Origin: Mytilus trossulus
Lineage: Eukaryota
Reading direction: 5' to 3'
Length of the DNA stretch: 64,000 bases
NCBI RefSeq assembly: GCF_036588685.1
Contig: NC_086377.1
Span: 18,104,001-18,168,000, forward strand
Below, in pieces: positions 12,894 through 53,700 of this stretch. The notes beneath the pieces are model-generated. The model had not been told where the DNA came from and did not search any database. It was given only the letters and a program-made list of their open reading frames with translations. Made by a program: the position numbers and the translations under genes. How positions within the stretch are numbered: the first letter of the stretch is position 1; each line of letters starts with the position of its first letter.

Positions 12894-12921
12894 GAAAGTA
12901 AAAAAAATACGTAGTGTCTTA

Positions 12922-15552: not shown

Positions 15553-16204
15553 TTATATCACGAACCCTGAGCGAATCAAATCACATTAGTACTAAAACAA
15601 ACCGGTCCTAACTATAACATTGTGTTTGTGTAATCATCGATGAAGAGTTAGTCCAATAGTCCTTCCCTCATGGCGAAATACATTATTGTTCCATCATCAG
15701 TTGTGGTTTCTGCGCATCAAAATAAACTTAATGCACTTGCTTGACCTTTAGACGAATTAAAAATCCAATAGAAATCAAAGAATTAACTGATTTAGCTCAG
15801 AAATTAGTCTGTTGAAACACAAAACTGAATCCAGATGAAGTTTGTCGTCAAATCAAAACACAAAACTAAACCAAACGAAATAAAACGCTAAAATATTCGT
15901 GAATCTAATTTTTCAAAATATTTAGAACACACACAATGAAAGATTGAAAACTCCTCTTTAATAGTTTTAAACAATAACAGAACAATCTTTTGAATATATA
16001 CATTAAATACTTTATGGGTTCAGAATATAACAAATAACTATCAATTTCAGTTTAAAAAGGTGTAAACGTAATTTGATATTGTATGCACCGTTTCATCTCG
16101 GTACTTCTTATTATTATAAACAAATTAAACATAACGTGTTTAACGGTATACTAATTCAAAAGTTGTATATTTGGTGTTTTCCCCCATATAACCCGTCTGA
16201 TACG

Positions 16205-16360
16205 GTGATTTCTGTCCGCAATTTATTTTTGTCCGATAATTTTGCTTTTTGTCCGCTTTTGCTTTTGTCCGTTGCTTTTTATTCGCGACACTTATGCTTT
16301 TTGTTCGACTATTTTGCTTTTTGTCCGACTATTTTGCTTTTTGTCCGACACTTTTTACTT
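16205..16360. repeat. Short tandem array of TTTTGCTTTTTGTCCG-like units
   Basis: About six degenerate ~15-20-bp units between the divergent RING and DNase II starts. Confidence 0.75.
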
Positions 16361-17052
16361 CCGGGCGAGAAAAGACTACCAAACCAACTATAAACTTATT
16401 TACTACAAAATTGGTTGAGCATGGCGAAGACAGCGAAATACGCTTATGAAAAGGAGGTTATGTTGTACAGGGGCAGAAATTGTGCTTTACAACATCCCAT
16501 CTATAATTACGAAAATGTTAAAGTATTGAGCGTGGCACAGACATTTTAGCATAACATGGTTGCGTATTTACACATCCACTCAACAAAAAGGACGACATCC
16601 TAAGGGCACGACACCCTAAAGGGGGGGAGGGGGCTCGATCCAGTCATAATGCAGTGATTCCTTATATATCAATCAATTTTTCCCATAAAAAGGGGAGGAG
16701 ACGTTTGAGATGATTTCATTGGCCCAGTGTATCTTGGAGATTTGAAAAAAAATAATAGTTAGGATCAGCTCAAATTTAATTAGTGACAACACTTCCCTTA
16801 TCATAAGTCGACCGACTTTACTCTTTGAAATTTGAAAAAGGTAAGTACAGACTAAATATATAAACGAGCGAAAAACCGCTTTCACATTTACACAAGGAAA
16901 TAATTTATTTGTAATTTCGTCAATGACTAAAAACGAGGAAGTCATATTAAAACATCACATGTGAATTAGTTCCTGTATAAAATGGATGATATGATTTCCG
17001 TCAGGTGATAATGGTATTCTGATCGATGACTTTAGTGTACATTTAATGAACG

Positions 17053-20000
17053 ATGTTTGTGCTTGTGTTTGTGGGTATGTTTGTTCATACTGTTTTCTGT
17101 ATGCAGTGCAGATCGCAAACAAATAAACCAGTAGATTGGTAAGATTTAAGTCACATGATAACATTTGAAATTTAATAATATTTTACATTTTCAGTTCTCA
17201 TTCTTTTTGAACATGTTTAAACACTTTTGTGGTGTCTAAAATAGACAAATCAATTTGTTTGTTTGTTTGTCCGTGTGTGTGCTTTTTTTCCTTTTCCTAT
17301 ACATAAAAAGGATAATACATATCATGATTTTCAACCTATACATTTAGTCAACCTTTTATAGATATTTCATATACATGTAGGTGTATTATTTTGTACCCGA
17401 GGGGTCTTTCGTTTTTCATTATACACAACAGCTGTTCCCGAATTAACAGTTCGAAAGTCAACGAAAATGAAATTGAAAAGCATTTCAAACCGAAAATCTT
17501 ATAAGTGTTGCTAAATACGGCTAACTTAAAGGTAATCTATGCCTGAGTGTAGAAAAACCTGAATAGTCTGGTAACCTTTTAGTAAAATCGCATGTTCAAT
17601 CCTGCTCAACAAATCGGTCTAACACAAAGACGCCTTAACACGATAACGACGCGTGTAACATTTGGAGCAGGATCAGATTACCCTTTGCGAAGAAACTGAT
17701 GTAAGTGTTGCTCAGTCTTGAGTTATGTATGTTGTGTTTTGTACACAGTTGTTGTCTATTGATAGTTTTTGTTTTTGCCCTGACATTGTCATTTCGTTTT
17801 GGACAAATGAGTTTGATTATTCCTAAAGTATCTTTTGTTTTCTTTTCTAGTATTAAATATGCATTCAGCAAACGTTATATTATATATTTTAAGGTTCATA
17901 GTGTACAAGATACCTAAGCTTGGAAGTCATCCTGATCCTATTTTCCAATCTGGGACGGGATTCTATTACATGGACAATGATAATCCTGAGCTGACACCTT
18001 CTGACAGAGGATTAGATGTGAAGAATGATGCCTTGTTTCATACACTCGATCAAATCTACAATAACAAGGTATAAAGTTTGATGAAATTTGGTAGATTCTG
18101 CATTGTTTCGTATCTTTTGGATCATATAGGAAGGGAGGCATGATATCTCACCAAACCTATTTAACCCGCCGCATTTTGCGCCTGTTCCAAGTCAGAAGGT
18201 TATGATCTTTGTTATACTAATTACTTGAAAGCTGTTTAATTCAATTTATTTATTAGTTTATAAGTTAAGTATGACTTTCAATATATTTGAAGTATTTGAA
18301 TAAACCGTGTTTAACAGTTCAAGGAAACCTTAGATAGTCAGTCATTCACATTGGTGCTACAAGTCCTTTCATTATTATTTTTTTAATGATACGCCAAGAT
18401 ATACACAAATTTGAGGGGTTGGTCTTATTTCAGACAGAAGTTGGCTATTTTATGTATAGCGATCACACACCAGACAATAGAACAGGCAACGACCCAAGAG
18501 GACATGCAAAAGGTAAACAGTACAAGCATTTAACATTACATGTTCCAAAGTCTTCTTTTATGTTCCCAGAAATATGATATAGATGGAAATATGCAAAACT
18601 GAAAGTTGACACTTATCTCTCAGTATTTCAAAAAGTTGAGATTTTCCGTACAACAATATTTGTTTACAATTTGCCTGTCTTTTCTAAGCTTTATTAAACA
18701 CAATATGTAGCAAAAAATAATAAGTCAAAACATTTTCTTTTAAAAATTGTAAGTAAACAATTGCAACTTTATAACATGGAGAAGGATAGATGGGTAAAGC
18801 GCAAATAGGAAAAAAGAGAGAAAAAAACCAGCTGCGTTCTAACTGTTTTCACCTGCTGGAGTGATGTCCCATCTGTAACTAGGTTTTATTGGAAATTTTC
18901 TTTAGTTAATAACCAAACATGATAATAGACATGCATCAGTAGTATATATTTAAAGAATTATATATTCGTAGAAATTTCATGAAGTATTAATTATTTTTAA
19001 TTCTTAATTTTTATTCAAAACGTATATAGTTGTTGCGTCACTGTAAAGCAAAGTTACATCTGGTTACGGTTAAAAAAAAAATGAAATACTCTTAATATAG
19101 CGGACTTAAAATTAATAAATATTTTTTTCAGGAGTTTTGGGATTTGAACAATCAGGTGGATTTTGGATGATACATAGCGCACCACAGTTCCCTCCATTGA
19201 GGTCTGATGGCTACAAATGGCAAGAAAAGGCCTCGAAAAATGGACAGACTTTCCTATGTTTATCTTTAGATTACGGGATCTTTAATCGCACAGGTACTCA
19301 GTATATAAATGTAAAGTGTAATAATTATAGGTTATCGTCACTGTCTATAGATATCATCATATATGTTGTCTTCAGATATTGTCTCACGTTTTCTCTACGT
19401 ATATCTTTATTCGTTTCGTGTAAGATATCTTCCACGTGTTGTCTCAAGATGTTATCATACGTGTTGTCTTCCCATATCATAACACGTACGAGTTGTCTTC
19501 CGATATCATAACACGTAAGTGTTGTCTTCAGATATCATAACACGTATGTATTGTACAAGATATCGTCACATGCATTGTCGTTTTAAATCGTAAGCATATA
19601 TTTTCTCCAGATATCGTCTCACGTTTGTCTTCATATATCGTCTCACATTTGTCTTCATATATCGAATCACGTTTGTATTCAGATATCGTCTCACGTTTTT
19701 CATCAGATATTGTCTCAAGTTCGTCTTCAGATATTTTCTCACGTTCGTCTTCATATATCATCTCACATTTGTATTCAGTTTCACGTTTGTTTCCAGATAT
19801 CGTAACTTGCTTTGTCTTCACATGTCGTCTCACCTTTGTCTACAGAAGTCGTCTCACGTTTGTCTACAGATATCGCCTCACATTGGTCTTCAGATATCGT
19901 CTCACGTTTGTCGTCAGATATCGTAACTCGCTTTGTCTTCAGCTATCGTCTCATGTTTGTCTTCAGTTTTCGGCTCATGTTTGTCTACAGATATCATAAC

Positions 20001-23000
20001 TCACTTTGTCTACATATATCGTCTCACGTTTGTCTTCAGATATCGTCACTCATTTTGTATTAAGATATCATCTCTAGTTTATCTTCAGATATCGTCTCAC
20101 GTTTGTCTTTAGATGTCGTCACTCGCTTTGTCTACATATATCGTCTCACGTTTGTCATCAGATATCGTCACTCGCTTTGTTTTCAGATATCGTCCAAGTT
20201 TGTCTTCAGATATCGCCTGACGTTTGTCTTCAGATATCACCTCACATTTGTCTTCAGATATCGTCTCACGTTTGTCTTCAGATATTGTCACTCGCTTTGT
20301 CTCAGGTATCGCCACTCGCTTTGTTTTCAGATATCGTCTCACGTTTGTCTCCAGATATCGCCTGACGTTAGTCTTCAGATATCACCTCACATTTGTCTTC
20401 AGATATCGTCACTCGCTTTGTCTTAAGATATCGTTACTCGCTTTATCTTCAGATATCGTCTCACGTTTGTCTTGATATATCGCCTCACGTTTGTCTATAT
20501 TTATCGCCTCACGTTTGTCTTTATGTATTATCTCAGATTTGTCTTCAAATATCGTCCCACGTTCATCTTCAAATATCGCCTCACATTTGTCTTCATATAT
20601 CGCCTCACATTCGTCTTCAGATATCCTCTCACGTTTATCTTCAATTATCCTCTCACGTTTATCTTCAATTATCGTCTCACATTTGTCTTCAAATATCGTC
20701 CCACGTTCGTCTTCAGATCTCGTCTCACATTTGTCTACCGATATCGCAGATATCGGCCCACGTTTGTCTTCAGATATCGTCTCATGTTTATCTTCACATA
20801 TCGTCTCACATTTGTCTTCAGATATCGTCTCACATTTGTCTTCAGATATCGTCCCACGTTTGTCTTCAGATATCGTTACTCACTGTGCTTTCAGATTTCG
20901 TCTCACATTTGTCTTCCGATATCTTTTCAGTTTTGGTGATTTTTAATTATCCTCACACGTTTTGTCTCCAGATGTCATTACACGTTTTGTCGTCAGATAC
21001 CTTAGTTCATTTTGTTGCGAGATGAAAATATCAATAATAGAATTGAGAATGGAAATGGGGAATGTGTCAAAGAGACAATAACCCGACCATAGAAAAAAGT
21101 TTACTCTGGTAGTTAAAGATATCGTTATTTCTTTCATTCATGAAAATATGTTAAGATATCTGTATTCATTACATTTTTTTTTAGATATCATTATTAACCT
21201 GTCTCGTATGATATTTCTTTATTCTCTATTTATTTGTTAAAGTGTTTAAATATCTTTATTTATTAGTTTTTGTGGTAAATGAGTGCAGATATCTTTATTT
21301 ATTCATCGTGTATAGATATCTTTATTCATTTGTAAATTTGTTAAGATATCTTTATTCCTTTGTAGTTGAGCTATCTGTCTTCCCTAATTTTGTCTACAAA
21401 TATGTTATTGTATGCTTTTTGCTGTACGGTTATGCATATACAATGGTAGTTTGTTGGATTCTTAATAATTACCCTCAAATGTTTGATTTTTATTGGTGTA
21501 TCTGTTGATGGGATTTTGGCTTATTGCTATGAATCTATTACCAACCATTAAGTTTAATTCATTTTTGTTCATATTATATTTCTTGTGTTTAGATATTCTT
21601 TGGTCATGATTATTGTTTCAGACGTCTGTGTTTCAATATATGCTCTATTTCAAAAATCTTTTATCTATAATTTTTTAATAGTTTATATTATATCATATTC
21701 GCAGGAACGGTGTTCAAATACATTTTCCCGTATATATACGATGTTGGCTTCCCTGCAATGTTCAACAAAGATTATCCAATGTTAAGACTTTTTAGTGTAG
21801 ACAAAGGTACAAGACAGCTACATGTCCAAAAGGCACCATGGTATGACGTAATAAAACTGCCAACAAAAGAAGGCGTGAGTTTCTTGAGTTTTTCGAAGTA
21901 TGGAAAATTCGGGAATGATTTATATGATGGCTTATTGTCAAATGAACTTCAACAGGACTTACTAGTGCAGTCATGGATAGCGACACAAAAAACGGCGGGA
22001 GATAAGCTACCTTCAAACTGTTCTATTCAGTACAAGGTAAGTGCAGACATGGATACATTAACCCCTATCCAAGTCCCACCAAAAATAAGCTGATGCCAAA
22101 CCACATTTTAACTGTTACATTAATGGGGCTGCTTCATTTGTTCTAGGTCGGGCTATGCCCGGTTCGCCCTATCACGTGACCGGGTTAAATATGGCTGAAA
22201 ATAAAACGAGTGGAACCGGCTGATTTAAAGATGGCGACAGAAGTTCAAATTTATACTTTTTTGCTTTCTAAGCTAGGGAATTTAAAAGATGAACCTATTA
22301 ACAATAAATATATATTTTTAAGATGCAGACTTTTTTTCTGAGGCCTTATTCATCATAAAAACGTTTCTCCGAGATAGTTTTATGAATTTGAAAAAAAAAT
22401 ATAGCATGGCAATTTAATATCGTCGTAGTGGACTAATTAAGTATCATGTATCATACTAGTCTGATTGACAAAAATCAATATTCACCTTTTAAATTCCGAT
22501 TATTTATCTAAAATTGCACTTTCTGCCATACTTTTATGACCGGCTGATTGCTTGCCGGTTAGTGTACACCGGCGAGAGCGGCGTATGCCTATTAGCGCCG
22601 GCGGCTGATTTTACAGCCTATGAAGCGACTGTGCCTATACCGGAAGAGTCAACCGGGCTAAGCCGCTGTGTCAAATCAAGTACTACCATTAAGCACTAGG
22701 CAAGTTCAGTCTTGGAGAGGGAGAGTCAGAAATAAAAAAAATATGAAAAATAAAAATAAAAATATATGTGTCCATGGTTCCTAAGCATATTAAACTGGTA
22801 ATATAACTACATCGTCGTTTAAAACAGTCATCAGCTTTATTTAAAAGAAATGCAGACATATATCTATTCAACAGTCTAACTTCAAAATTTGAATATGAAA
22901 TTGTCAGAATTAGTCGATTTACTGTTTTCCAAGTATACTCTATTTGGGATGGTCATTATGTTACGTTGCTAAGTTTTTTCCTCTTCAGTATAATAAATTA

Positions 23001-24955
23001 CAGTGAATTATCCATTTAAAAAAAAAAGTCCTATTTATTTAAACAAAATGCAATGAATTTTTAACATTTACAGGTCTACAATGTCAATATAATGAGGTTT
23101 CCGGGCAAGAACATAGAGTTTACAACATCTAAAGACCACTCTAAATGGGTTGTCTCTAAAGACAATGGGAACTGGTTGTGTATCGGTGATATAAATAGAC
23201 AGGTTAGTGGTTAGCTCATTGAAAAGTCAATACGTAAGTAGCCATTTGTAGACCGGTCAAAACTGACATTTTGAGGTACTCACTGAAAGCTGGAACAGAC
23301 TCCAACCCCGGACTTTGGTCTAAAAGCCTGTCATATGCTTATACATACATAAATAATATATAGACAACATTTATTTGAAATAAAAAGCATGACTTAGACA
23401 GTTACAATAAAGCTGTCAACCTGGGACTAGTAGTAAGTTCTGTGTCTAAAATTCTACGAACGCCATCACGAGTTGGTTGACCGTACTGGAATATCTATTT
23501 CCGAGATAATAACGGGTATGTTCCTTATGTCGAAACTACAATCCCCTTCCAATATCAGGATTGTGACCTTCTGATTGAAACTATTTGCCAGTTTTGTAAA
23601 CAAATAAGAAACATGACGGGTGCCACATGTGGAGCTGGAGCTGCTTAACCTTCCGGGACACATGAAATCACTACCAGTCTTTGATGAGGTTCGTGTTGCT
23701 TAGTCTTTAGTTTTCTATATTGCATTAATAAAATCATATTTGTGAGTTCTTAATCGCCCAAAACTGAAAAATAGCCGTAAAAACACAGACTATAAAGTCG
23801 AGAATCTCAATATAACTTGAGACGACGGCTCTTTAAATTGTAATTTTAAAAGGTTACAACTCTGAAATAAATTTAGGTTTTTCAGTCTGGTAATAACTCA
23901 CAACATATTCCTCCATATGAAAAAAGTTCAACATTTTTAAAATTTTCATTAAGTATTCAGTATTGTTTTACCTAATATTTTTATTTTCCGTATATAATTT
24001 TGTTCTTTGTTCCTTTGCCCCCTCAATTATTCTCTAATATTTGCTAAGTTTTCTGTATTCAATACTTGTTGCCATTTATTTTCTATAATGTATGCTAACA
24101 TTGCCTATGTAAATTTTAAAATTGCTTGTATGCACATTGAAGGACAAATTTATGTGACGTATAAAAGATTTCTGACGTCAGACACTCAAATAAATCAATG
24201 TGTTCGTAGATAGTAAATGTTTTTGTGTTCTGTTAAATTGTTTCATTTAAAATTGATATACGATGATGACTGATGTACCCATATCTTGACTATTTTATTT
24301 ATTGTGTCTGTAAATTTAACACATCAATGTAAATATAACGGAATTTGATGAGACTGTCATTAAAGTGGGAGGGTTCGCGCTATAGAACCAGGTTTAATCC
24401 ACCATTTTCTACATTTGAAAATGCCTGTACGTAGTCAGGAATATGACAGTTCTTGTCCATTCGGTTTTTAGCGTTTTGTTATTTGATTTTGCCATGTGAT
24501 TATGGACTTTCCGAATTGATTTTCCTCTAAGTTCAGTATTTTTTTTATTTTACTTTTTTCTATTCGGGTAACTCAATCCTGACCCTCTTTTTTACTCATG
24601 GCATTGTCTGTTTATTCACACTTAAAAGTTTGAATATCATTTGATATCGTTCGCCTATATTTTACAAAAAGATATTACCATTTGCTATATGCAATTAAGT
24701 TGAAATAACAGGTTTAATTTTATTTAAAAAAAATGTAAAAAATATAAGTTTCAAATGATAAAGCAATGCTTCTGTATTCTTATTATAGCCCGTTTTCCTC
24801 CAGAATGTGTCTTTTGTATGCAGCTGTATATCTTCACTCTAGTGTTTTCATTTTAGAAGCCACAGAAATATAGAGCTGGTGGGCAAGTTTGTTTTCAGAA
24901 TAAATTTGCTTGGAATAGTTTCAAAAAGATTGTCAAAGACTTTGAAGCATGTTAA
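17053..24955 (+). CDS. DNASE2: Deoxyribonuclease II (plancitoxin-1-like); 353 aa, 7 exons
   Basis: Exons 17053-17138, 17894-18068, 18434-18512, 19132-19293, 21705-22036, 23074-23202 and 24857-24955; all GT-AG and phase-consistent. Signal peptide [16 protein letters not shown], then KPVDWFIVYKIP, both HxK motifs (GHAKG, DHSKW), [28 protein letters not shown] and RAGGQVC. AATAAA at 25051 and 25069. Confidence 0.95.
19350..21005. repeat. 24/25-bp minisatellite (CAGATATCGTCTCACGTTTGTCTT) in DNase II intron 4
   Basis: Dozens of tandem units. Explains all [16 protein letters not shown] ORFs between 19528 and 21025. Confidence 0.95.
22124..22688. mobile_element. MITE-like element with GC-rich subtermini, flanked by TTAA
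   Basis: Imperfect TIRs TGGGGCTGCTTCATTTG / CAAATCAAGTACTACCA; TTAA at 22120-22123 and 22689-22692; lies in DNase II intron 5. Confidence 0.55.
23451..23720 (+). mobile_element. Penelope-like retroelement 3' remnant
   Basis: Encodes [20 protein letters not shown], followed by GACGGGTGCCACATGTGGAGC. Same family as 28858-29240. Confidence 0.65.
24352..24560. mobile_element. Abundant interspersed repeat (AATGCCTGTACCAAGTCAGGAATATGACAG family)
   Basis: Copies at ~6140-6370, 7784-7960 (reverse), 25330-25560 (reverse), 26007-26150, 35510-35640, 36230-36432 and 58727-58880. Confidence 0.8.
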
Positions 24956-34200: not shown

Positions 34201-34824
34201 TTGCTTTCCTAATCAAGTTGTCTGTTTGTCGGGTCTTTTCTATGACATTGTATTTTTCTATGACATTGTATTTTTCTATGACATTGTATTTTTCTATGAC
34301 ATTGTATTTTTCTATGACATTGTATTTTTCTATGACATTGTATTTTTCTATGACATTGAACATTTTTATGATATTGTATTTTTGTCTTTGGTCTTATAGT
34401 TTCCTCTTATTACACTGTTTCTGATCACATCAGGACCTCGTTTACACTCTATATTTTCAAAAGTTTGAGAAATTATAATTCGAAATGTATTACTAGTACC
34501 TTTCTCAGTGTCGTTACAATTTTGTAAGAATTCCAGATATTCATTTGAAGATTTGTCAGGATATCTAAGGTTCAGTATCCACTGTTCTCTTGTTTTCCTT
34601 TTTTCTAAGCAAACTTGATACGTTCGTTCAAACTGTTTAATTGTTAGTCCAAAAACATCATTTGTTATCATCATTCCACCATCTAAAGATTGGTAAAGTA
34701 AAGGTGTAAACTTGCGCTTTCCCCGGTACGGAAAACGTTTTACACCGTATATTTCCCAGTACATGATCTTCTTTATGCAAAATCGATTTTCATCATCAGA
34801 TTTGTCTTGGTTTTTTGATGACAT
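31267..34824 (-). CDS. Mab-21/cGAS-like receptor (cGLR) nucleotidyltransferase with unrecognised N-terminal domain and TPR-like C-terminus; ~762 aa
   Basis: Exon 34824..34500 (...DTEK+G|gtacta, phase 1) joins 33230..31267 (tattttatag|AT) in frame. Motifs: SGSLAEGLALPDSDID, likely third acid in TEDEAFC, WRFSFSVAEKILV, YSLLK, SYFLKTALFW, CPNYFIPEHNMF. C-terminal LLGVCYEISGDKDRAYQCYEEAL is TPR-like. A further upstream exon 35957..35876 is predicted. Confidence 0.88.
34236..34383. repeat. 18-bp tandem repeat (TTTTTCTATGACATTGTA), ~7 copies, in cGLR intron
   Basis: Perfect units; source of the NVIEKY and MTLYFS ORFs. Confidence 0.95.
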
Positions 34825-35058
34825 GAAGCCTGTTGGAAAGATACGATTACATAGATAATTTGGTTACTACATTTTAGTTAATGTTACTATAGTTGCATTT
34901 TAAAATACGTTGCTATGAATGAAATAAATAAATATGAATATGTCTAACGTTTCGTAGCTTTCACGGCTCTCGAAGGTTAAGTTTTAAATATCTTAAACAT
35001 ATTAATAGTTATCTGCGCGTCTGGCGTATAAAATTATAATCCTGGTACTTTTGATAAC

Positions 35059-35390
35059 TATCAAAAGGTACCAGGATTATAATTTAGTACGCCAGACGCG
35101 CGTTTCGTCTACATAAGACTCATCAGTGAAGCTCATATCAAAATAGTTATAAAGCCAAAAAAATACAAAGTTGAAGAGCATTGAGGATTCAAAATTCCAA
35201 AACGTTGTGCGAAATACGGCTAAGGTAATCTATGCCTGGGATAAGAAAATCCTTAGTTTTTTTTTAAAAGTTCAAAGTTTTGTATACAGGAAATTTATAA
35301 AAATGACCACATTATTGATATTCATGTCAACACCGAAGTGTTGACTACTGGCCTGGTGATACCCTCGGGGACGAAACGTCCACCAGTCAT
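35059..35390 (-). mobile_element. Retrozyme-like non-autonomous element (~330 bp)
   Basis: Same family as 4840-5120. Contains an intact hammerhead core. Its end is inversely duplicated at 35015-35056. Confidence 0.8.
35089..35132 (-). ncRNA. Type I hammerhead ribozyme
   Basis: GCUUCA CUGAUGA GUCU-UAUGU-AGAC GAAAC GCGC GUC^UGGCGU. Canonical core, 4-bp stem II, palindromic short stem III, stem I with one mismatch. Predicted cleavage between 35095 and 35094. Confidence 0.9.
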
Positions 35391-35677
35391 TTTTAGCTCT
35401 TTATACAAACCGGGAGTTGTTTCGTCAACACCAAAAGGAACAAGACCGGGTGCGCCAATATAAAATGACCGTCTTCGTCTGTGCATGCTTTTGATGTTAT
35501 ACAAATGAATGGTTAAGCTAGCTATAAAACCAGGTATAATTCACACTTTCTTCATAAGAGAATACCTGTACTAAGTCGGGAATATGACAGTTGTTATCCA
35601 TTCGTTTGATGATTTTGACCTCTTGACTTTGCGTTAGGACTTTTCGTTTGGGATTAAAAAATATATATATATATATA

Positions 35678-35843
35678 CAACTCGTCTAAACATCAACCCA
35701 ACAATGTTAGATCTGTAAATTTGCTTTCGCAAATTTTTGGTTCTTCCCTCGCCGGGATTCGAACCCATGCTTCTGTGATATCGTGACACCAAATCGCCTG
35801 CACTGCAGCCGTCCCGCTAGACCACACGACCACCTGGGCTCTC
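35678..35843 (-). mobile_element. tRNA-derived SINE inserted in (TA)n
   Basis: Minus strand GCCCAGGTGGTCGTGTGGTCTAGCG (A box) and GGGTTCGAATCCC (B box), followed by a non-tRNA tail; TA repeats on both sides. Confidence 0.75.
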
Positions 35844-35875
35844 TAAAAAGAGCTATATATATATGTATATCTTAC

Positions 35876-40911: not shown

Positions 40912-41730
40912 TTAACCAAAACACAAACTTAAACAATAGCTGATGTCAACATCAATGTCATAATAGTACACCTTATTAAACAAAATAAATAAAAACAAAT
41001 TACTGATGAAATGTATAAAAAATATAATATTTTGTATGATTGCAAATACTTTAGTTTAAACATATTTTATTGTTTAAAAATGACAAATGGATTAGAAAAA
41101 AGTTTGCAAATGAGACAGCAGTCAGCTTGCTGTTGAAAATTTAGGCAACTGGTTTATTGTTTTATGAGTTTTCATAGTTTAAGTGTCACAAACTTGGCAA
41201 ATTTGGTTTCTTTGTTTGACAGATGTGGCTTTTTGAGAAGACAAATTCTACATTTAAACAAAATTTGATGTTAAAATTTTGACTCATTTCAATGACTTTT
41301 TCAAAAAGTTATACACAATCAAAAAAAACAATTTCAAAGAAACTAATGGTTTGTGATCTGCTATTCTATTGTTTTGAGTATATTTGAACCTCATATCTTA
41401 AAATTTTCGCTAATATATTTGTCAATTATGCAAACTAAAAATGTGATGATAATACTTATAAAAATAAATTTGCAGAATTCGAAATGTCTGCAGCTAAAAT
41501 AAAGGTACACAAAGCAGCAAATTATATTAAAATGGAATAGACTAGTTGAACATTTTTCTGCGTATACTTAAAAAATATCACATACATAATCTACAACAAA
41601 TCTATTAAAAACATGAAAGACATGAATAAATAGGATTGTATTCCCTCAAGTTTTTGTATAAATCAAAACCCACTGGTTATAATATTTTTAGTTTCCCATA
41701 ATTCTTTGTTTCAGATTTTCTGCGACATAG

Positions 41731-44700
41731 TCACTTCCTGATTAGGCTTTTGTTTTCACTGTCTATTGTAGATGTGCTGGACATTTCTTCGTTGACATTA
41801 TTTACAGATGCTGTATCAGGGCCTGAGTTGACAATGTCTGGTTGTGGTGGAGGACCCTCACTGTTCTCTGTCACATTCTGTCCAATAGATAAAGTATTCA
41901 AGGTTAAATAAAGATTCAACATCCAAGGGTAAATAAAAAATAAACATTCAAGGTTAAAAAAATAATAAACATTCAAGGTTAAATAAAGAAAATATTTGAT
42001 TAATTGAAATTTAATTGTATAGAGTGGAGAAATATGGTATACAACTTGTTTAATTGTGGAATCTGTTTCCCTAAACAATTTTCATACTAAAATCTGAAAG
42101 AGGCTTATCTTCCCTTTTCAAAGAATTACAGAAAGTTTTTTTTATACTTGATGTCATCAGGCATGTATGCCTTTTTCATGATGTCACAACCGGAAATTCA
42201 GAAAAATTTGAAATGAGAAATATTGTTCTCACGCCGATCAAGATGTGTGAAAAAAACATGAAAATAAGAGAAAAATATTTTACCACTTTTTTAATTCCAT
42301 TCCACAATAGTTTAAATTCTCCTCTGATACAGCCAATCACATAAGTTGTTATAAGTGTACAAGGCACCAGGTACAATAAAGCTGGTTGGCCAGTCTGCAT
42401 CAACTCCAAGGCAACAAACGTGATGATCATTCCAATTCCATAGGCTGTAAATACATACATACATTAAAGACATAATCATGACTATGTATATGTAAATGTA
42501 GTAATGCTGTCACGGAATAGAGTTTCCTTCTTATTATAAGTTCCAAATGGAAAAAATGTTCTGAAATATTATTTCCACAGGAATAAATATTACAGTTAAT
42601 GTTCCCAACGGAATAAATGGTATAGAATATTTGTTCCAACAGGAATAGATATTATGACAATGTTTATAACAAAGTTTCCATTGGAACTTTTGCAAGGTGG
42701 AACAAATATACATTGACAATGCCCAGTGACCATCCCCTCTTTACCCAGTTATATCATCAACAACAAGAATGTGTCCATAGTACACGTTTGCCCCACTTGC
42801 ACTATAATTTTCTTAGTTTAGTGGACCGTGAAATGGGGGAATATCTATAATTTGGCATTAAAATTAGAAAGATCATATCATAGGGAACATGTATACTAAG
42901 TTTCGAGTTGATTGGACTACAATTTCTTTAAAACTACCTTGATCAAAAACTTTAACCTGAAGCCGGACAGACAGATGAACGGACAAACGAACAGAATCTA
43001 CAGACCAGAAAACATATTGCCTTTCTACTATTGTAGGTGGGACATAAAAACTAACTATAAAAAAGAAGATGTGGTATGGTTGCCAATGAGACAACTCTCC
43101 ACAAGAGACCAAGATGACATAGAAATAAACAACAAATTGTACAGCCTTCAACAATGAGCAAAGCCCATACCACATAGTCAGTTATAAAATGCCCTGAAAT
43201 GACAATGTAAACAATTCAAATGAGAAAACTTACAGCCTTATTAATGTACAATTTTTTTAAAAAAAAAAGGTAACACATAAACAAACAACAATGTTTTTTG
43301 CATTCTTCTGCTTGTCTTAATAAATTATGAAATAACCTGTGCAAACCTATGCATGTTTACAGCAAGACTTACCTATAACTGTAGCTATGTAGTAAATCTT
43401 TTTACTTTTGACATTTAAATCTATTCCATGGTTATAACCAACCAATAAACCTGCAATACACCAACAAAGATTGGATGGATAAATAAAGCAGTAATATACA
43501 ATATTTAGATGATTTACTCAATATTTAGCCTCTCATTATGAATTTTCATTACTTTTTTTTTAATTCTTGTTGTGACATTTCAATGGACAAGCACTGTTTT
43601 TATGAGTGAGGTGTAATTTTTTAATTTCTGCGATCTTTCTGTAATATTATGACTTTGACCATTCATAAATCATTCTCACAAAACATGTCACATTCAAAAT
43701 TGATTAAAGACTTTGAAAAACATTAAAAGCTCTCAAATTCTATATTTTTCTTTGAACCTCGTGATAATTTGAATTTGACTTTTCACAATCTGTACATATT
43801 TAGTAAATGTGTTAAATATCTTTTTGTGTCCGGTAATGCATTTGTTTTATCGTGTTTATGTCTGCTGTTAACTTGATATTAGCTGTGTTGGATAGACTTT
43901 ATACAAATGATAATCAGTACATCTGTTTACTTTTTCAGGTGGAAAAAATCCTCTATGCAAAGTATAACTCTATACATCCATATTTTTGTATATCTGATGA
44001 GTTAAGCCTTTTTCAACTGATTTTTATAGTTCATTCTTATGTTGTTCTGTCATGACTGTTACACCACTGTCCCAGGTTAGGGGAGGGTTGGGTTCATGCT
44101 AACATGTTTAACCCCGCCACATTATTTATGTATGTGCCTGTCCTAATTCAGGAGCCTGTAATTTAGAGGTTGTCGTTTGTTAATGTGTTACATATTTGTT
44201 TTTCGTTGATTTTTTTACATAAATAAGGCCGTTAATTTTCTCGTTTGAAATGTTTTACATTTCCATATCGGACCCTTTTATAGCTGACTATGCGGTATGG
44301 GCTTTGTTCATTGTTGAAGGCCGTACAATGACCTATAGTTGTTAATGTCTGTGTCATTTTGGTCTTTTGTGAATAGTTGTCTCATTGGCAATCATACCAC
44401 ATCTTCTTTTTCATATGCCAACAATCATCTTTTATTTCATATTTGAATGTTCCAAAATGAACTAAAGTTTTATCAATGTTAATGTTTACTTTCATAAGGT
44501 CGATTTCTATCCTAAGCAGCTCATATGTTAATATCAAATATTATGAAGACAAATATTTTGCTAAAATTTAGATTGATAATTGCTGCTGTAACCTTGACAT
44601 ATCCTCGGGGGTCACTTCCTATATATATATGTAGGACTCAAATCCATGGTGGGTTCCAAATCTATGGCAGATTCCTAATCTGTGGTAAATGTGACGTCAT

Positions 44701-47700
44701 GCCATCACAAATCTATGGCAAGTTTTGTAATTTCCTAATCTATGGCGGATTTATGTTGTTTCCAAATCTATGGCAAGTTTTGTGCAAATGGAAAACAATG
44801 CAGTACATTTTCGACCAATGACTTGTCTTAGGCAAGTGGAAAAATACGGCAACGGGAACATGTCTATAAACATTTGTGAAATAAACATTCCATAATGGTC
44901 AACTAAAAAAAAACATAACTGATAAATTCATATGCCTTAATAAAGACTTCATATGCTTTGTAAAAAATAAACATTTTTTAATCTGTGCATGGTACCTGTT
45001 TAACCAATTCATTTAACCAATATATAAGACCTCTAACAAACAAGAAGGCCGCTTTTTTATTTTTTTTTTAAAAGTAACAACTGAAAATTAACAGGTTGAA
45101 TTTTCAAATAATATTTATTTCAGCGATATCGTTAATACATCTTTTTTATTTGATGACGATTTTAAATTAAATTTGTATCCTAGAATTTTATATATCATTT
45201 TATAAACTTTGCCAGCCGAAGACAGTAAACTACTACTAACTAGACATAGGAAGATGTGGTATGAGTGCCAATGGGAGAACTCTCCATCCAAGTTACAATT
45301 TATAAAAGTAAACCAGTATAGGTAAAGGTAAGGCCTTCAACACATCGAACAGCAAGCTATAAAGACCCCAAAAAAGCCTTTTTATAAAATATGTGGTACT
45401 GAAAATAGCAGCGCCATAATTCATCGCGGGATTCAGCCAAGTACAGCACATTTGGTTCATCTTTGGGATAATAGGTCACATCTTCCTTTAAACCACCCGC
45501 AAATTTTTGTCAGGAAAATATCTTCATCTTAAATGGTGTTCAAATCTATGGGTTCCGCCATCGTTAGCGGCGGCGAAGATGTAATATGGCGTTATATTCA
45601 ATTGTGACGTTATACGGTACCCTCTCCCCAAGAGCAACAGTCTAATCTATATAAAAACTGAGAAATGTTAAACGCTTCAGCTTATGAACCAAATCAACGA
45701 AGAACAAACACTTGTTCAGATAATAAAATTATTTCATTACACATTGGTCTTACCTGGAACTATCACATCTCCAAACCCTAACATGGAAGGCTGATTTAAA
45801 CAGGAACTATAGGGAGAATAATTCAACTTTGGTACTACAAACACCATAGGCAGCTGAAAAATATATCAGTTTAAGTCATTGGATACTAAACCACAAACAC
45901 CATAGGCAGAGCCGCAGCTGAAAAATATATCGCTATAAGTCATGGAATACTTATCTAGATTTTGTAATTAGTTGTAAGTTAAAAGCCTTCTAAAATTTTA
46001 AAATTTGTGGTTGAAAATCTAGACAGACAAAACTATAATTTGTCTGGCTGATATAAAGATCTCATAGCTAATTTGAATAAAATAATTAAACATTTGGTCA
46101 GACAATTGGCAATATTTGTTGACCAAACTAAAAGGACAAGGTACACTAAGGGCCGTATTTGGCCCCCTTTTTTGTCATTTTTTTTTCTTAATGAAATAAA
46201 CGAAATTATAATTGGAAATAATTTGCATTTATCTGTTCTTAAGAAGCTCATGCGGATTTTAATTTTTGGGAAAGCAGAAACCTGATTTTGGGTTGCTTAA
46301 AGTTTCTTAAGTACACCAAAACGTAGCAAAATGTTGATTTTTGGACTGAAATTCTCCGTTTTTAAAGGCCTCCGCCAACGTGAGCCACAGAAACGAATGG
46401 TGATAAAGATAGCATTCAAACGGAATTTTCTGATAATGAAAAGAAACTTTTGGCTCACGTTGGCGGAGACCTTCAAATATAAATAAAAGTATCTCCTAAA
46501 AAAACAACAACTTCGCCGTAATAGTAAAATCGGAGCGAAATCGGAGAAAGGGCTGAAAAACTCCGCATTCGACTGTGATTACCAGACACCACCAACTACA
46601 TCAAGAATATTTCCAAAGGTGAGGTTTTTAGTTTGAGATTTTGCAAACATTCTTCAAATTGTATTTTTTTTCTTATTATCAATCTAGATTTTGTTTTACC
46701 AATGACATGACTTATGACAAGCATACTGAACTGTAAATACTTAAATTAACTACATATCAAAATGCTGATCTTGTGGGTAGTTCACAAGGTAAAAGTCAAC
46801 ATGAACACCTAGGAAACATTTCTAAAGCTTGTCAAACTTTTCTTTTCATCCAGTTTTTAAAGTTAATTTTTTTAGTAATGCACATATATTTTATATGTAA
46901 CTTATATATATATATAATTAGAAAAAAGTGCAGGTTCCAGCCCCGGCGCGGGGGATGAAGTTACGAATCAAATCTACTCTTACATCGTTAGGTTGATTTT
47001 CTAGGCATTTTATATATCTATGTGTATATATAGATAATGAGGAAACAAATTTGCAGTTCACTTTAAGTGTTGTTGTCAATCTAGTGGTAACTTATATGAG
47101 TACATCTTTTACCCTTTCATTGGATTTTGATGCTCCTCCAGTAGCAACTTTAACCATTATACTTTCACCATTCTGTTAAAAAAATTCAGAAAATTCAATA
47201 TATATATATGTGTTATTTAAGGTGGTACCCAAGGCTTTCACTAAAATTAATTTGGCTCGTTTAATTTTCATAAAATTTTGCCAAAGTATTTACTTTGACC
47301 CTTTAACCAAAATATATAAATTTCCAAAATTTTGAACCAACCATTTTATCAGAAAAATTACACTGGTTATATAGCAGTTTGACAAACACTTATTTTGATC
47401 ATTGAGAAGCTTAATATTCCCTTTACAACACTATGTAATTAAAACGTACTAAATTATAATCCTGGTACTTTTGATAAATATTGGCTGATTTTACAGAGTT
47501 ATATCCCTGTAATGTTAGGTACCACCTTAAACAGTCAAGATATAATATGACTCATTTAGATATAGCTACCATCAGATAAAAAAACAATGTTTGCTGTGCA
47601 CAATTCATTTCTATAAGTTGTCATGCCATAGATTTGCGCTTCCTGTATTCCTTTAACCTTCTCAAACACTTAGAACCAATAAAGATACTATAAATTAGGA

Positions 47701-50700
47701 TATTTACTCATGACAGTCACGAGAGTATGACTATGAAAGTAACAAAGTTATAATTATTAACAAAACATAATTTTTATCTTGTTCTATGAAAAAGAAATTA
47801 CAGATGCAAACAGACTTTGGACATGACTTATATTTAACTGAGTTATTTGACCTTTCTCAAACATATTTAATTCATTTGAAATGAAAAATTTACTTTTCAA
47901 AAGTAAAGATCATCCAATATTAACCAAAGGTCATTGCCAATTCGCCCTTTCAGAATCTAAAGGACTATGGGTAATCGCATTGTTCATACACCAAAACAAA
48001 AATAATGTCAGATCATTGACATTGGTTGAATTTCTATTGTTTAGAACGTTTTAAACCAATCAGAACATTTTAGTGTACACTTTTGAAAATATAACCCAGA
48101 AGCATTGGATTCTGAAACGGCGAATTACAAATGCATCCTATTTCCTATACAACTTTTTTAAAGGTCTAAATGCAATGTTATATGGCAAGTCTAGACATCT
48201 CTATTGTAGCTTTGCATGAACGAATTATAATCATGGTATTTCTACGCTTAAGGTGGTACCTAGCACAATAGGGAGATAACTCCGTGAAATCAGCTAAAAG
48301 TTTTAATTATGTTGTGTTGTTATGGGAATATTAAGCTTCTCAATGATCAAAATTAGTGTTTGTCAAACTGATATATAACCAGTGTAATTTTTCTGATAAG
48401 AAGGTTGGTTCAAATCTTTTGAAATTTTTATCATTTTGTGAAAGGGTCAAAGTAAATATTTTGTCAAAATTTTATGAAAATTAAACAAGCCAAATTAATT
48501 TTAGTGAAGGTGTTGGGTACTACCTTAAAGGCAGGTTTATCTGAACATTCTATATCTATCATTGTCTATATATTTGTTTAATCATTTACATTCCATAGGA
48601 GCAAATTATAATTTTCATTCTTTATCAGAATGTTTGGTAGGATAACATACTCAAAACATACCAGTATAATTTATTAAATTTCAAAATAAAGTTCTGAACC
48701 CCAAAAAACTAAAAAAAAAAGAACCCCAAAAAAGTTGTAAATGGTATTTTCATATATTATTCAGTAATTAACCAAAGCCACAACATATTAAATCATTAAG
48801 CAGAGGGTCTACATGGATATCTTTTAAGCCAAGATTGTTTTACTTCAAAATATAGCATTTTACTTTTTAGCATCATGGTAATGTTCTGCTATTATCTTAA
48901 ATGTGATGCTATCTAAAGAGGTTTTCTTCTAGATTATGTTATGGATGTGATGCTATAATTTTTAGAAACAAGATGGTATTTTAATTTCCCCTGTTTACCA
49001 GGATGCTAAATGAAATATCTAGGAAGAACACTGTACATGCTCAAGAAAAATTAAAGCAATGAAAAAGTCGCCATGAAACTAAAATATTCCAGAGAAATAA
49101 ATAAACGTTCAATATCATATGACATTACTGTAAAACAAAAATACCATTTTAAAATTTATTTTCAAGTTCACCAATTTTCATTCTAAAAGATTCATGATAT
49201 ACATACAACATATTCCTGTTTACAAATCAAGTAATTTTTTATGGAATTTGGAAAATTTGATGAGAAAAATAAGAATAATCCAAATTATGTCAGGAAAGTC
49301 CATGAGAAGAATGAGTTAAGTGATAAAATGTCTTAAATTATTATCTTACAACATAACCCAGCCTTATATGTATGAACAAAATCATTATTAAATTTCTTCA
49401 AACCATCAATCTGATTATATTGACACACCATGAATTTATTAAGATGGGAATTGTCAAGAAAGAATTTAAGTGAAAAATTCACTAAAGGTGGTACCTAACA
49501 CTACAGGGAGATAACTCTGTAAAATCTGATGAAACGGTTGGTTCAAAATTTTATATTTTTGTCAAAGGGTCAAAGTTAATACTTTCTCAAAATTTTACGA
49601 AAATTAAACAAGCCAAATTAATTTTAGTGAAAGTGTTGGGTACCACCTTAAACTAGCCTTAATATTATTATTATTAAATTTCTTCAAACCATCAATCTGA
49701 ATGATCTTGACACACCCAGAATTCATTAGGATGGGAATTATCAGTAAACATGGTAAAATAGGTAACAAATTTGCTTATCTAAATTATTCTGTAACACATT
49801 TTCTGTTGTATTTTGTATATATTTATTTCATACATATATATGATGTATATACATATTTGGACCTATAATTCAGTTAAGAATATGCATGATATATTTGCCA
49901 CTAGACATTTAATAATGAATTAATTGAGCAATCAATTATCAGAAACAGTGTAACCAATATGAATGAAGACTTATCAGAAATTGACCAATATTAAAAATAA
50001 TCTGACATCTTTATATAACTATTCGAAAGTTTCGCCAAAGCTTAAAAAGTATTGCTATTCCAAAATGAAAACTAGTGAACTTGAAATAAATCCTTTTTAA
50101 AGTAATCCCACATGCAGATATAGAAAGCCTTACTCTTTTAGTCACTTCAAGAATTTCTTCATCCTAATTAACACAAAAAATTAATTCAATTATAGGTTCC
50201 ATAATGGACAAGGGTTTCTCTTCTTATAAGAATATTTAGAAAGTATTTGGGCAGCTCATTTAAAAGTTAATTTGTGATTGTTAGCTTTCAGATATTTATA
50301 TTGGAGTCTGTGACAAGGCAAAGTTAGAGATGTCCTGAAAGGAGTAGGTCCAGAAGACCCCTTTTCGGCCCCAAATTAAAGCAGCTTACAAAATTGTTAA
50401 AAATGTAAACTTTAAGTTATCTATTGGAAAGTAGAATGCTTCTGCTTCATAAATATGGGCTGGTTTTGACAATTCAATCCACAAAAATGGGATACTAGCA
50501 TCATTAAGTCATGCTAAATTACTGAAATCTTCACAATTTTAGCGTTTTAGTTAAACTTTTGGCAGTTTCTGTCTTAAATGAAGGTAGCCGCATTTGTGTT
50601 CATTCTTAATATTGAAATGCCATTCGTATTTGATGACAATAGATAACATATATAAAGGTTAAGGATGAACACAAATGCAGCCCCTTTCATTTTTGACGAA

Positions 50701-53700
50701 AACCATCTGAAAAATGACATATTTTGGCATATTTGATAGATTTTTCATATTTAAGCTTAAATCAGAGCATTTTTAAAGACTAAATCAGTTAAAATCTTTC
50801 AATCAAACTAATTGATTCAATTGTAATAGACATTTAGGTGTTTGAAAAGTGTCAAAATTTCATCAGATGAACCTGAAATTTGAGGCCAAAATCGGCCCTT
50901 ACTGAACCTACTCCTTTGACCTAAGGACAGTAATAACCTCCTTGAATTTATTTTTTATTGCGTAGCATGTTTCTTGAATAAAAGGTCAAAATATGCATTT
51001 GGTCTTGAACATGCTTATATCACTTTTTTTAAGTTTGGTCTTTCAAAACAGACAAACTTTTATCAACAGATTTTTTTAATTAAGGTGGTACCCAACACTT
51101 TCACTAAAATCAATTTGGCTCGTTTAATTTTCCTAAAATTTTGGACAATGTATTTACTTTGACCCTTGAACAAAATTATAAAACTTTCAAAAAATTGGAA
51201 CCAACCATTTTATCTGAAAAATTATACTGGTTATATAGCAGTTTGACAAACACTAATTTTGATCTTTGAGAAGCTTAATATTCCCTTAACAACACAATGT
51301 AATTAACTGATTTTACAGAGTTATCTCCCTGTAGTGTTAGGTACCACCTTAATAATCTGTATTGGAAAGTTTTTAAATATGATATCCCCTTTGAACCTTA
51401 ATATCAAATAAATTTGAACTGACGAACCCAGTTTGGCAAAAAGAATCATTAGTTTTTCTTAGCATTTTACACAAATTTAACGTTACAATGTCAACTACTG
51501 TAAATTCAAAAATTATTGCATGCACTTATTATTGCGATTTTATCATTTTAGACTTAAATGTGATTTTAATTTTGACGATTTTGAGAAAAATCCTGTTTAA
51601 TTCATACAAAATATTTCAAAATGCGAGTTTAAATTATTGTGTTTACAACTCTGTTGCATTTTTTCGGAATAATAAAAACATTGCAATAATTTCTGAATTT
51701 ACAGTATTGAAAAAAAATAATTCTTGACACGTGAATAAGCTGACTTAATTAGCCATATCTTACCTTAGTAAAAAAAGGTGTGATAAATACGAAGAAAATA
51801 TCATACAGGAATAACAGTATCAGTAATATTGAACAGATCTGTAAAAAATAAATAAACATTCAATTCTAACTCATGATCTTAATAGTACAAGATGTATTCA
51901 AAATGTATTTTAGTTTATAAATGTATAGAAGACACAGGTTTCCATAATATAAGTTGAAGAGTTTTTTTATATTTGCTTTTTGATTGACAGCTTACACATG
52001 AGGGCTCTTCCATTAAAATGCAAGTGGTAAGGTAGGAAAAGAAGGTCAATTATTGAATGGGGGTCACAGGTCTTTTTTCAGTATATGTCTATTACCATTA
52101 TGCAAAATTATCTAAAAATGGTTCTTAGTTGTAGGGATACTTTGGAAATTCCTACACGCCCACATAAATTCTAATGGAATAGCCCTCATCAAATTAATAT
52201 ATTAAGCCTTTTGCATTTAAATGTTCTTACTTCATTAATTCTGAAAATAGTTTAAATTTACTTTCATGAGTAAACACCTTTTTGTCAAGGATACTTATCC
52301 AATATATACTAAACACAGGGTCAAACACAATGTACAATTAAACAAATTTTTGATGATGGAAACTTTTGAAAAAATGGATTAAATATATACCAGCTTTTGT
52401 ACATACTCACCTTTAAATTGGGTACTTGGATAGTTTTAAGCATGTTGATACAGAAAGCCAAACCTAATATATCTTGTAATACCCAAGCATAGCTGGAAAA
52501 TATTGGAGCACATTAAATTCATACAAAAAGTAAAAATGTTATCATAAATCAATTGTTATATAAATAATTGGACTTCAATTTCATGAAAAACTAACTCGAC
52601 CAAAAACTTTAACCTAAAGCAGACAGACAGACCAAAGAACGAACATCAATCGATTGGACGGACAAACAAACAAAAACACAGACCATAAAACATAATGCTG
52701 CTAGGTAGGTCATACAATCATGCATTGTAAATTTTAATAGCATTATTGGTATACAACTTTAGTTAAAATCCCAATTATAAATCCCTCATTGATGTTCACC
52801 AAAGGCACAATAAATGCATGCAGATCAAATGTATTCGTTCATAGTGTATTAATTTATGTTTTTGATAGAGTTGAGCCTGCCAATTGATATTTTATCGTGT
52901 GTTTTTCTATGTTGTGATGTTATGCTATTGTTTCAGAAAAAGGGAGAAGGTTTGGAGCCGTTAAAACGTTTAATCCTGCTGCAAATGTTTGCACCTGTCC
53001 TAAGTCAGGAATCTGATGTACAGTAGTTGTCATTTGTTTATGTAATTTATACGTGTTTCATGTTTCTTTTTTTTTTATATATAGATTAGATTGTATGTTT
53101 TCCCGTTTGAATGGTTTTACACTAGTAATTTTGGGGCCCTTTATAGCTTGTTGTTAGGTGTGAGCCAAGGCTCTGTGTTGAAGGCCGTACATTGACCTAT
53201 AATGGTTTACTTTTTTTAAATTGTTATTTGGATGGAGAGTTGTCTGATTGGCACTCACACTACATCTTCCTATATCTACTAACGATTCTTGGCTTTACAA
53301 TAATAGTCTTTGTAAAAATCCTATAATAACTTTTTTAAAACATTATCTTGTTTTTTTACCTTTCATGTCGTTCTACAGCCCAAACAATGGCAAAGGTTAA
53401 ACATAAGGCATATAATATCAAATTCTTGACCTCTAACTGACTCTTACAGCATGGTAACTTTGGTGTACTACAATATAGAAATAACAAACATATAGCATTG
53501 TTTTGTTTGAGGCGTTCAAGATTTTTACATATAGGATTAAGGGCATGGTATGTACTTTTATTATATCATAATTCAATCATGAATAATATATAGTTTCATT
53601 ATACTTATACTTCTTTAGAAATTTTTATAGATACTGTGGATTCATTATAATTGTTGGATACCAATTTTCATGGGTTTCGTGGGTACAGGTGAACCACGAA

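What the first reader, a model, noticed from the sequence alone, without database searches (positions are those of the whole stretch)
35015..35132. Hammerhead ribozyme in a predicted cGLR intron, with an adjacent antisense arm covering its cleavage site
Seen: an intact hammerhead lies on the same (minus) strand as the cGLR, between predicted exons ending 35876 and starting 34829. Immediately 3' of it, 35101..35059 and 35056..35015 form a ~42-bp near-perfect hairpin. The distal arm (ACGCCAGACGCGC) is the exact complement of GCGCGUC^UGGCGU, which comprises stem III, the scissile bond and the 3' strand of stem I. The ribozyme fold and the hairpin are therefore mutually exclusive. Established: hammerhead retrozymes producing circRNAs are described in mussels; inverted ends are a known by-product of Penelope-type insertion; several cGLRs sense dsRNA. 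Inference: a kinetic switch or neutralising structure that protects the pre-mRNA and also places a dsRNA stem in a sensor's own transcript.
Basis: partly seen in the sequence, partly recalled or inferred. Interest (0 to 1): 0.7.

Follow-up and report, generated by a model that had tools for sequence, protein, structure and literature searches.

The report
Mussel ribozyme silenced by nested insertion
A damaged copy of a very common mussel jumping RNA sits in a likely intron of an immune-sensor gene, and a 46-base scrap of a sister element inserted backwards into its tail is predicted to block its self-cutting site; this is most likely an ordinary insertion accident, seen at 13 other places in the genome, not a regulatory switch.

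Summary
The hairpin and the gene are real; the switch is not supported. A type I hammerhead (35132-35089, minus) lies in a 328-bp copy of the known Mytilus non-LTR retrozyme, in the likely 5'-UTR intron of a Mab21/cGLR-TPR gene. It is not intact: stem I carries a U·C mismatch (G in 11,811 copies, other bases in 265). The arm is not copied from this element: its 46 nt match another retrozyme lineage exactly, all three hairpin mismatches are lineage markers, and GATA is duplicated around it, so it is a second, truncated insertion. Arms covering the cleavage site occur at 14 loci; none of the 13 others is within 5 kb of a cGLR, 8 have better ribozymes. No paralog shares the arrangement (0 of 24). 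The arm is predicted to cost the ribozyme fold ~36 kcal/mol and arrives within seconds, against ~0.1/min published cleavage: an off state, not a switch. One DNA run hints at an arm-less allele. No RNA evidence was obtained. The scan noted similar fold-back hammerheads in other genomes. Verdict: ordinary by-product.

The parts
35059..35386 (-). 5'-truncated single copy (328 of 356 nt) of the Mytilus non-LTR retrozyme, lineage A; one hammerhead only, so it cannot release a monomer circle
   Evidence: 94.5-96% identical to lineage A copies, 91-92.6% to lineage B; tandem 356-bp arrays elsewhere
35089..35132 (-). Type I hammerhead: core intact, stem II 4 bp, stem III 2 bp + GCGC loop, C17 at 35095; stem I with U·C mismatch at 35130/35091
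   Evidence: family G at this place in 11,811 exact copies vs 265 non-G
35015..35060 (+). 46-nt tail fragment of retrozyme lineage B, inserted tail-to-tail (the antisense arm in the pre-mRNA)
   Evidence: 46/46 identical to copies in L115 and L116; its diagnostic 27-mer occurs 4,802 times
35015..35101 (-). Predicted 39-bp RNA hairpin that buries the cleavage site
35004..35013 (-). Displaced normal 3' end of the lineage A copy; its first 4 nt (35013-35010) duplicate 35062-35059, read as a 4-bp target-site duplication, with one extra base at 35014
   Evidence: sequence; interpretation inferred
35350..35386 (-). Family-native hairpin region that is an imperfect antisense of the hammerhead core
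   Evidence: duplex -26.8 kcal/mol with 35132-35090; present in natural copies L002, L008, L103
35876..35957 (-). Likely non-coding 5'-UTR exon of the cGLR gene
   Evidence: acceptor and donor conserved in paralogs; no RNA cover
34501..34829 (-). First coding exon (ATG at 34824) of the cGLR-TPR gene
   Evidence: P0004 residues 1-108; 99 matches in the genome
31270..33230 (-). Main coding exon: Mab-21 NTase, Mab-21_C and a C-terminal TPR
   Evidence: Pfam; P0004 residues 109-762

Best explanation
A copy of the mussel retrozyme with a mismatched ribozyme stem lies in the likely 5'-UTR intron of a cGLR-like gene, and a 46-base fragment of a second retrozyme lineage, likely pasted backwards into its tail by a Penelope-type enzyme, is predicted to lock the cleavage site in a hairpin with no selected role. 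Steps: (1, shown) lineage A copy with a stem I mismatch; (2, shown) arm identical to lineage B, flanked by a GATA duplication; (3, inferred) the A tail was nicked after GATA and primed reverse transcription of a lineage B RNA from the family's fixed 3' end, which stopped after ~44 nt; (4, predicted) in the pre-mRNA the arm is made 1-4 s after the ribozyme and outcompetes it, so the site is constitutively off; (5, inferred) the intron is spliced out and degraded, with little effect on the gene.
For: Arm 46/46 identical to lineage B copies L115/L116, main tail 43/43 identical to lineage A copies L002/L003/L005/L006; lineage marker counts 4,802 and 3,394. Exact tail-to-tail pattern at 2 loci against 0.7-3.0 expected from random placement of 12,000-24,882 tails. 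Arms covering the cleavage site at 14 loci (6, 8, ours among the 8); 0 of the 13 others, nor L160, has a cGLR hit within about 5 kb; 8 of 13 have a full core with six paired stem I positions. 0 of 24 paralog loci has a retrozyme in the 1.5 kb before the first coding exon. In 20 paralog 10-kb stretches, 3 (two are duplicates) carry sense hammerheads with paired stem I and no adjacent arm upstream of the first coding exon. Model cost of the ribozyme fold: 36.6 kcal/mol with arm, 16.1 without, against median 7.25 (5.4-9.2, n=20) for G-bearing natural copies. Published kobs about 0.1/min for a cloned mussel repeat (PMC7229834) gives 0.2-0.7% cleavage in 1-4 s. Hammerhead cleavage inside an intron did not block splicing in mammalian cells (as reported in PMC2995048). 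PLE endonucleases recognise their own tail region and prefer AT-rich sites (PMC11167929).
Against: No cleavage assay, no RNA evidence. Nearest-neighbour models score even good hammerheads as unfavourable, and one natural copy with the same mismatch scored 7.4, so residual activity without the arm is possible; without the arm 10-39% could cleave in 1-5 min at 0.1/min. The chance estimate assumes uniform placement and a rough N; for the 14-locus pattern N was not counted. The arm junction is present in two DNA runs, so it is not a one-off. Whether the paralogs' sense hammerheads are transcribed is not shown. Retrozymes are depleted from introns in Xenopus (10.64898/2026.07.22.740005), so some cost of genic copies exists. 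About 4 of the 14 other loci examined look like same-lineage fold-backs, so more than one route makes arms.
Confidence: 0.85

Rival explanations
1. Selected suppressor: the sense-intronic ribozyme reduced cGLR output and the chance arm insertion was favoured because it shuts cleavage off.
For: The arm pairs the scissile bond perfectly over 14 bp and adds about 20 kcal/mol against the ribozyme fold; arm junction seen in runs X2 and X3; intronic depletion of retrozymes in Xenopus (10.64898/2026.07.22.740005).
Against: Stem I already mismatched; slow family rate (PMC7229834); cut introns can still splice (PMC2995048); same arrangement at 13 loci without a cGLR; frequency fits chance; X1 contig fits an arm-less allele (hint only); gene is one of about 99 paralogous matches.
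Confidence: 0.09
2. Kinetic switch: the ribozyme cuts or is captured by the arm depending on polymerase speed, temperature or a helicase, tuning cGLR expression.
For: The folds are mutually exclusive and the ribozyme is transcribed 60-75 nt before the arm.
Against: In stepwise truncations the ribozyme fold is never the predicted fold before the arm appears; at 0.1/min under 1% cuts in the 1-4 s window; a 36 kcal/mol gap is not switchable; no conservation in paralogs.
Confidence: 0.03
3. The 39-bp stem is a self dsRNA ligand giving feedback on the cGLR encoded by the same gene.
For: Seven of 15 active animal cGLRs respond to dsRNA and nucleic-acid sensors have pI above 8.5 (10.1101/2023.02.22.529553); P0004 has pI 8.61.
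Against: The stem is intronic; the two oyster cGLRs named there sense dsDNA; activation needs long ligands; ligand of this clade is untested; the third catalytic acid is displaced relative to relatives; retrozyme RNA is already abundant in mussel cells (PMC7229834).
Confidence: 0.015
4. The arm arose by replication template switching on this same copy, or is an assembly artefact.
For: A short quasi-palindrome sits at the fold point; some other loci have arms sharing private changes (L156).
Against: All three arm differences are markers of another lineage; contigs of X2 and X3 run from the unique flank 14 and 26 nt into the arm.
Confidence: 0.015

Closest known systems
Mytilus non-LTR retrozymes (Cervera and de la Pena 2020, PMC7229834)
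   Same: Type I hammerhead in a 356-nt unit that forms tandem arrays, thousands of copies, more than one ribozyme family.
   Different: This copy is a truncated monomer with one hammerhead, a stem I mismatch and a nested antisense fragment. I did not align it to the deposited circRNA sequences.
Inverted-repeat insertion units of Penelope-like elements (PMC8557442; mechanism PMC11167929)
   Same: Inverted truncated copy next to a longer copy; fixed 3' end some 40 nt after the ribozyme; AT-rich target in the element's own tail.
   Different: The described inverted copy adjoins the 5' end of one insertion unit; here it is tail-to-tail and from a different lineage, so a second event. The autonomous partner was not identified.
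Antisense-blocked hammerheads of plant LTR retrozymes, viroids and some mussel circRNAs (PMC7229834 discussion)
   Same: Ribozyme blocked by a complementary sequence in the same RNA.
   Different: There the blocker is a conserved part of the element; here the arm is locus-specific. The family has its own partial blocker at 35386-35350.
Functional intronic ribozymes such as CPEB3 (PMC10274809, search listing only)
   Same: Self-cleaving motif in the sense strand of an intron.
   Different: No conservation across paralogs, damaged stem, transposon origin, no measured activity.
Bivalve cGLRs with TPR (10.1101/2023.02.22.529553)
   Same: Mab-21 NTase plus C-terminal helical domain and TPR; large gene expansion.
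   Different: Ligand and activity of this clade untested; third acidic motif atypical in this copy.

Membership tests
Type I hammerhead ribozyme | CUGANGA, GAAA and UH core | tested here: met
Type I hammerhead ribozyme | Stems II and III closed | tested here: met
   4-bp stem II, 2-bp stem III with tetraloop
Type I hammerhead ribozyme | Continuous stem I next to the core | tested here: not met
   U·C at the fourth pair; family G in 11,811 vs 265
Type I hammerhead ribozyme | Self-cleavage | not testable with these tools
   needs in vitro assay; contigs cannot show RNA ends
Metazoan non-LTR retrozyme | Non-coding 150-400 nt unit with type I hammerhead, in tandem arrays, high copy | tested here: met
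   356-bp period arrays and more than 11,000 cores
Metazoan non-LTR retrozyme | Two hammerheads to release a monomer (active copy) | tested here: not met
   this locus holds 328 nt and one hammerhead: a family member, not an active copy
Penelope-type insertion | Fixed 3' end, variable 5' truncation, inverted neighbour | tested here: met
   tail table, arm anatomy
Penelope-type insertion | Autonomous PLE partner sharing the end | not tested
cGLR | NTase core plus C-terminal helical bundle | tested here: met
   PF03281 (E 4.7e-4, below cut-off) and PF20266 (E 2.8e-11)
cGLR | Active-site motif h[QT]GS..[DE]h[DE]h..h[DE]h | tested here: inconclusive
   GS and DID present; third acid 98 residues on, with E and D displaced where most relatives have D-hydrophobic-A
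cGLR | Ligand-dependent nucleotide signal synthesis; dsRNA sensing | not testable with these tools
   needs biochemistry
Regulatory ribozyme switch | Two folds of comparable energy or kinetics, conserved context | tested here: not met
   36 kcal/mol gap; 0 of 24 paralogs

The most novel reading that the evidence does not exclude
One mobile ribozyme rescued a host immune gene from another: the lineage B scrap is a naturally selected, still polymorphic antisense suppressor of an intronic hammerhead, so that mussels with and without the arm differ in cGLR output.
Probability: 0.07. Interest if true: 0.55.

Novelty: new member of a known kind. Interest (0 to 1): 0.15.

Why it matters
As found it matters little: it is one of more than 11,000 copies of a described element, and its hairpin is what nested insertion yields. 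It does give a clean, dated example of one retrozyme lineage inserting into another's tail with a 4-bp duplication, and a set of 14 such loci that could map the target preference of the unknown mobilising enzyme. If arm-less alleles cut and lowered cGLR mRNA, it would be a natural test of whether intronic hammerheads cost animals anything.

Tried and rejected
Rfam scan of the window: 0 matches. Sequencing-run search: no RNA holder listed on record; four guessed-RNA runs X6, X14, X19, X20 had no cover on either flanking exon and showed no splice joint, which is no evidence either way on expression. Template switching from the same copy was my first reading and was rejected once the arm proved to be lineage B. 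[quoted passage not shown] The hammerhead-like string on the plus strand at 35353-35380 is the complement of a family hairpin, lacks a proper stem II and has CUGGUGA; rejected as a second ribozyme. Using L175/L176 as proven intronic controls was dropped: their nearest 5'-UTR exon homologues, 25 kb upstream, lack the GT donor. Literature: 'retrozyme'+'cGAS' gave 1 unrelated paper; 'cGLR, bivalve, dsRNA, Mytilus' and 'hammerhead ribozyme, intronic, pre-mRNA, antisense, retrozyme' listed nothing on this locus or on nested retrozyme arms, judged from listings only. Earlier findings by place and by sequence: none.

Full report
Observation. The minus strand carries a type I hammerhead: core at 35126-35120, 4-bp stem II, GAAA, 2-bp stem III with a GCGC loop, C17 at 35095. 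Directly 3' lies an inverted repeat that folds into a 39-bp hairpin of -61 kcal/mol (z -10.9, 0 of 200 shuffles) whose outer 14 bp cover stem III, the scissile bond and the 3' strand of stem I. Rfam found nothing in the window. The ribozyme is not intact: stem I has U·C at 35130/35091. The exact 34-mer with G at this place occurs 11,811 times in the genome, with A, C or T 265 times.

Gene. The window is G000:C5:18104001-18168000. The ORF 33303-31270 has Mab-21, Mab-21_C and TPR matches. The exon starting at 34829 encodes 108 residues that match 99 places in the genome and the N-terminus of P0004, a 762-aa protein labelled Mytilus trossulus, which maps 100% to 34824-34501 plus 33230-31270. The small exon 35957-35876 keeps its acceptor in 11 of 11 and a GT donor in 10 of 11 aligned paralog stretches (some are near duplicates); two more homologues lack the donor. 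So the hammerhead most likely lies, sense, in a 1,046-nt 5'-UTR intron. No RNA contig confirmed the splice or the start site. The GS and DID motifs are present, the third acid is displaced, pI is 8.61; ligand and activity are unknown.

What the element is. 35386-35059 is 328 nt of a 356-nt unit that forms long tandem arrays, 94.5-96% identical to lineage A copies and 91-92.6% to lineage B. This fits the mussel non-LTR retrozymes of PMC7229834 (passages and sections 14 and 17 read; supplements not read, and they hold the mussel hammerhead drawings and sequences): about 5,000 hammerheads in 350-390 bp repeats, kobs about 0.1/min in the sentence that cites the mussel figure. A copy with one hammerhead cannot release a circle.

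What the arm is. On the plus strand 35015-35060 is a retrozyme tail in its own right. It is 46/46 identical to copies in L115 and L116, while the main tail is 43/43 identical to L002, L003, L005, L006. The arm's diagnostic 27-mer occurs 4,802 times, the main copy's 40-mer 3,394 times. All three hairpin mismatches are thus lineage markers. After the arm the main copy's normal end resumes at 35013, with GATA duplicated (35062-35059, 35013-35010) and one extra base. The simplest history (inferred) is a second, 5'-truncated insertion into the first copy's tail. PMC11167929 (passages) reports that Penelope-type proteins start reverse transcription at fixed internal sites, prefer AT-rich targets and, for D. 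virilis Penelope, need the tail for recognition; PMC8557442 (passages) describes inverted truncated neighbours as typical.

How common. The tail 13-mer occurs 24,882 times (control 20), 6,273 of them continuing in tandem. Random placement of 12,000-24,882 tails predicts 0.7-3.0 exact tail-to-tail pairs with a 6-30 nt spacer; 2 are seen. A pattern for arms that cover the cleavage site finds 6 loci at spacer 28-60 and 8 at 61-90, ours included; I had no count of N for this pattern. In 10-kb stretches around the 13 others and L160, none has a cGLR hit; 8 of the 13 have a full core with six paired stem I positions; by eye about 10 of 14 join two lineages, and several show the host tail resuming behind the insert. 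I could not tell which are intronic.

Paralogs. None of 24 paralog loci has a retrozyme in the 1.5 kb before the first coding exon. Of 20 paralog stretches of 10 kb (20 of the 99 matches), 9 hold retrozyme sequence, and L165, L175 and L176 (the last two duplicates) carry sense hammerheads with paired stem I 1.7-2.8 kb upstream with no adjacent arm; that they are transcribed is not shown. At 9.3 cores per Mb about one such intronic hit is expected among 99 genes.

Folding and timing (predicted). Forcing stems I-III costs 36.6 kcal/mol with the arm and 16.1 without, 12.5-13.6 in longer arm-less contexts, 34.6-35.6 with the arm. Natural G-bearing copies cost 5.4-9.2 (median 7.25, n=20); the 10 other stem I variants 6.8-16.1, one with the same mismatch 7.4. 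These models omit tertiary contacts and Mg2+, so only the ranking counts. The arm is complete about 75 nt after stem I, 1-4 s of transcription; at 0.1/min 0.2-0.7% would cut first, and 10-39% in 1-5 min if there were no arm and no mismatch. PMC2995048 (passages) reports, second hand, that hammerhead cleavage in an intron left splicing efficient whereas a fast HDV ribozyme did not. The arm is therefore a permanent block on a weak site, not a switch.

Polymorphism (hint). Contigs of X2 (34730-35028, no difference) and X3 (34733-35040) run 14 and 26 nt into the arm, short of the tool's 31-letter bar for a bridge. An X1 contig fits 34817-35013 without difference and then has 16 letters that do not fit, as an arm-less allele would; another X1 contig fits 35386-35500 and has 75 letters that do not fit on the element side. 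The letters were not shown. X4 gave no listed piece at the junction.

dsRNA reading. 10.1101/2023.02.22.529553 (passages): 7 of 15 active cGLRs sense dsRNA, two oyster enzymes sense dsDNA, activation depends on length. An intronic 39-bp stem in a cell already rich in structured retrozyme RNA is an unlikely ligand (inference).

Against my reading: no bench or RNA data; the chance estimate is rough; retrozymes are depleted from Xenopus introns (10.64898/2026.07.22.740005, first fifth and passages read); the arm allele is in at least two runs of one study.

Verdict. Observation partly confirmed, function not supported. A decayed copy of a known element with a nested inverted fragment. Earlier notes of this scan describe like arrangements in octopus and sea squirt (unchecked). 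Interest 0.15.

Noticed in passing
L147-L152 (G000 C4:86229686, C6:91323662, C7:3735630, C8:4210194, C10:16976409, C21:2980912): All 6 nested insertions with spacer 28-60 sit 10-13 nt after the host copy's cleavage site, although about 25 offsets were open to the pattern: a likely target hotspot of the mobilising endonuclease; some show a 4-5 bp duplication.
   Followed up: partly
   Followed up: partly
L156 (G000:C10:47326622) and L160/L032 (G000:C6:7376873): Arms from one lineage; L156 shares a private change on both arms, so true templated fold-backs also occur.
   Followed up: partly
L175:6416-6858 and L176:6358-6806: Partial-tandem sense retrozymes upstream of two duplicated cGLR paralogs; first hammerhead intact, second with C3>U.
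   Followed up: partly
window 4838-5121 and 47445-47481: Two more family copies in the window: a 284-nt copy with a broken core and a 37-nt tail scrap.
   Followed up: partly
window 34935-34975 (minus): Unique sequence with a hairpin followed by GAAACGTTA that resembles a decayed Penelope-type minimal hammerhead (resemblance recalled, not tested).
   Followed up: no
window 35680-35845 and 35500-35640: The same intron holds a tRNA-like SINE ending in (TA)n and another high-copy repeat: it is an ordinary repeat-filled intron.
   Followed up: no
window about 17000-22100 (+) and 41700-59500 (-): Neighbours: a DNase II gene (PF03265) downstream of the cGLR, and a gene with a QPALLYLVP motif, recalled as signal peptide peptidase-like, upstream.
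   Followed up: no
window 34236-34361: 18-bp minisatellite in the next intron.
   Followed up: no
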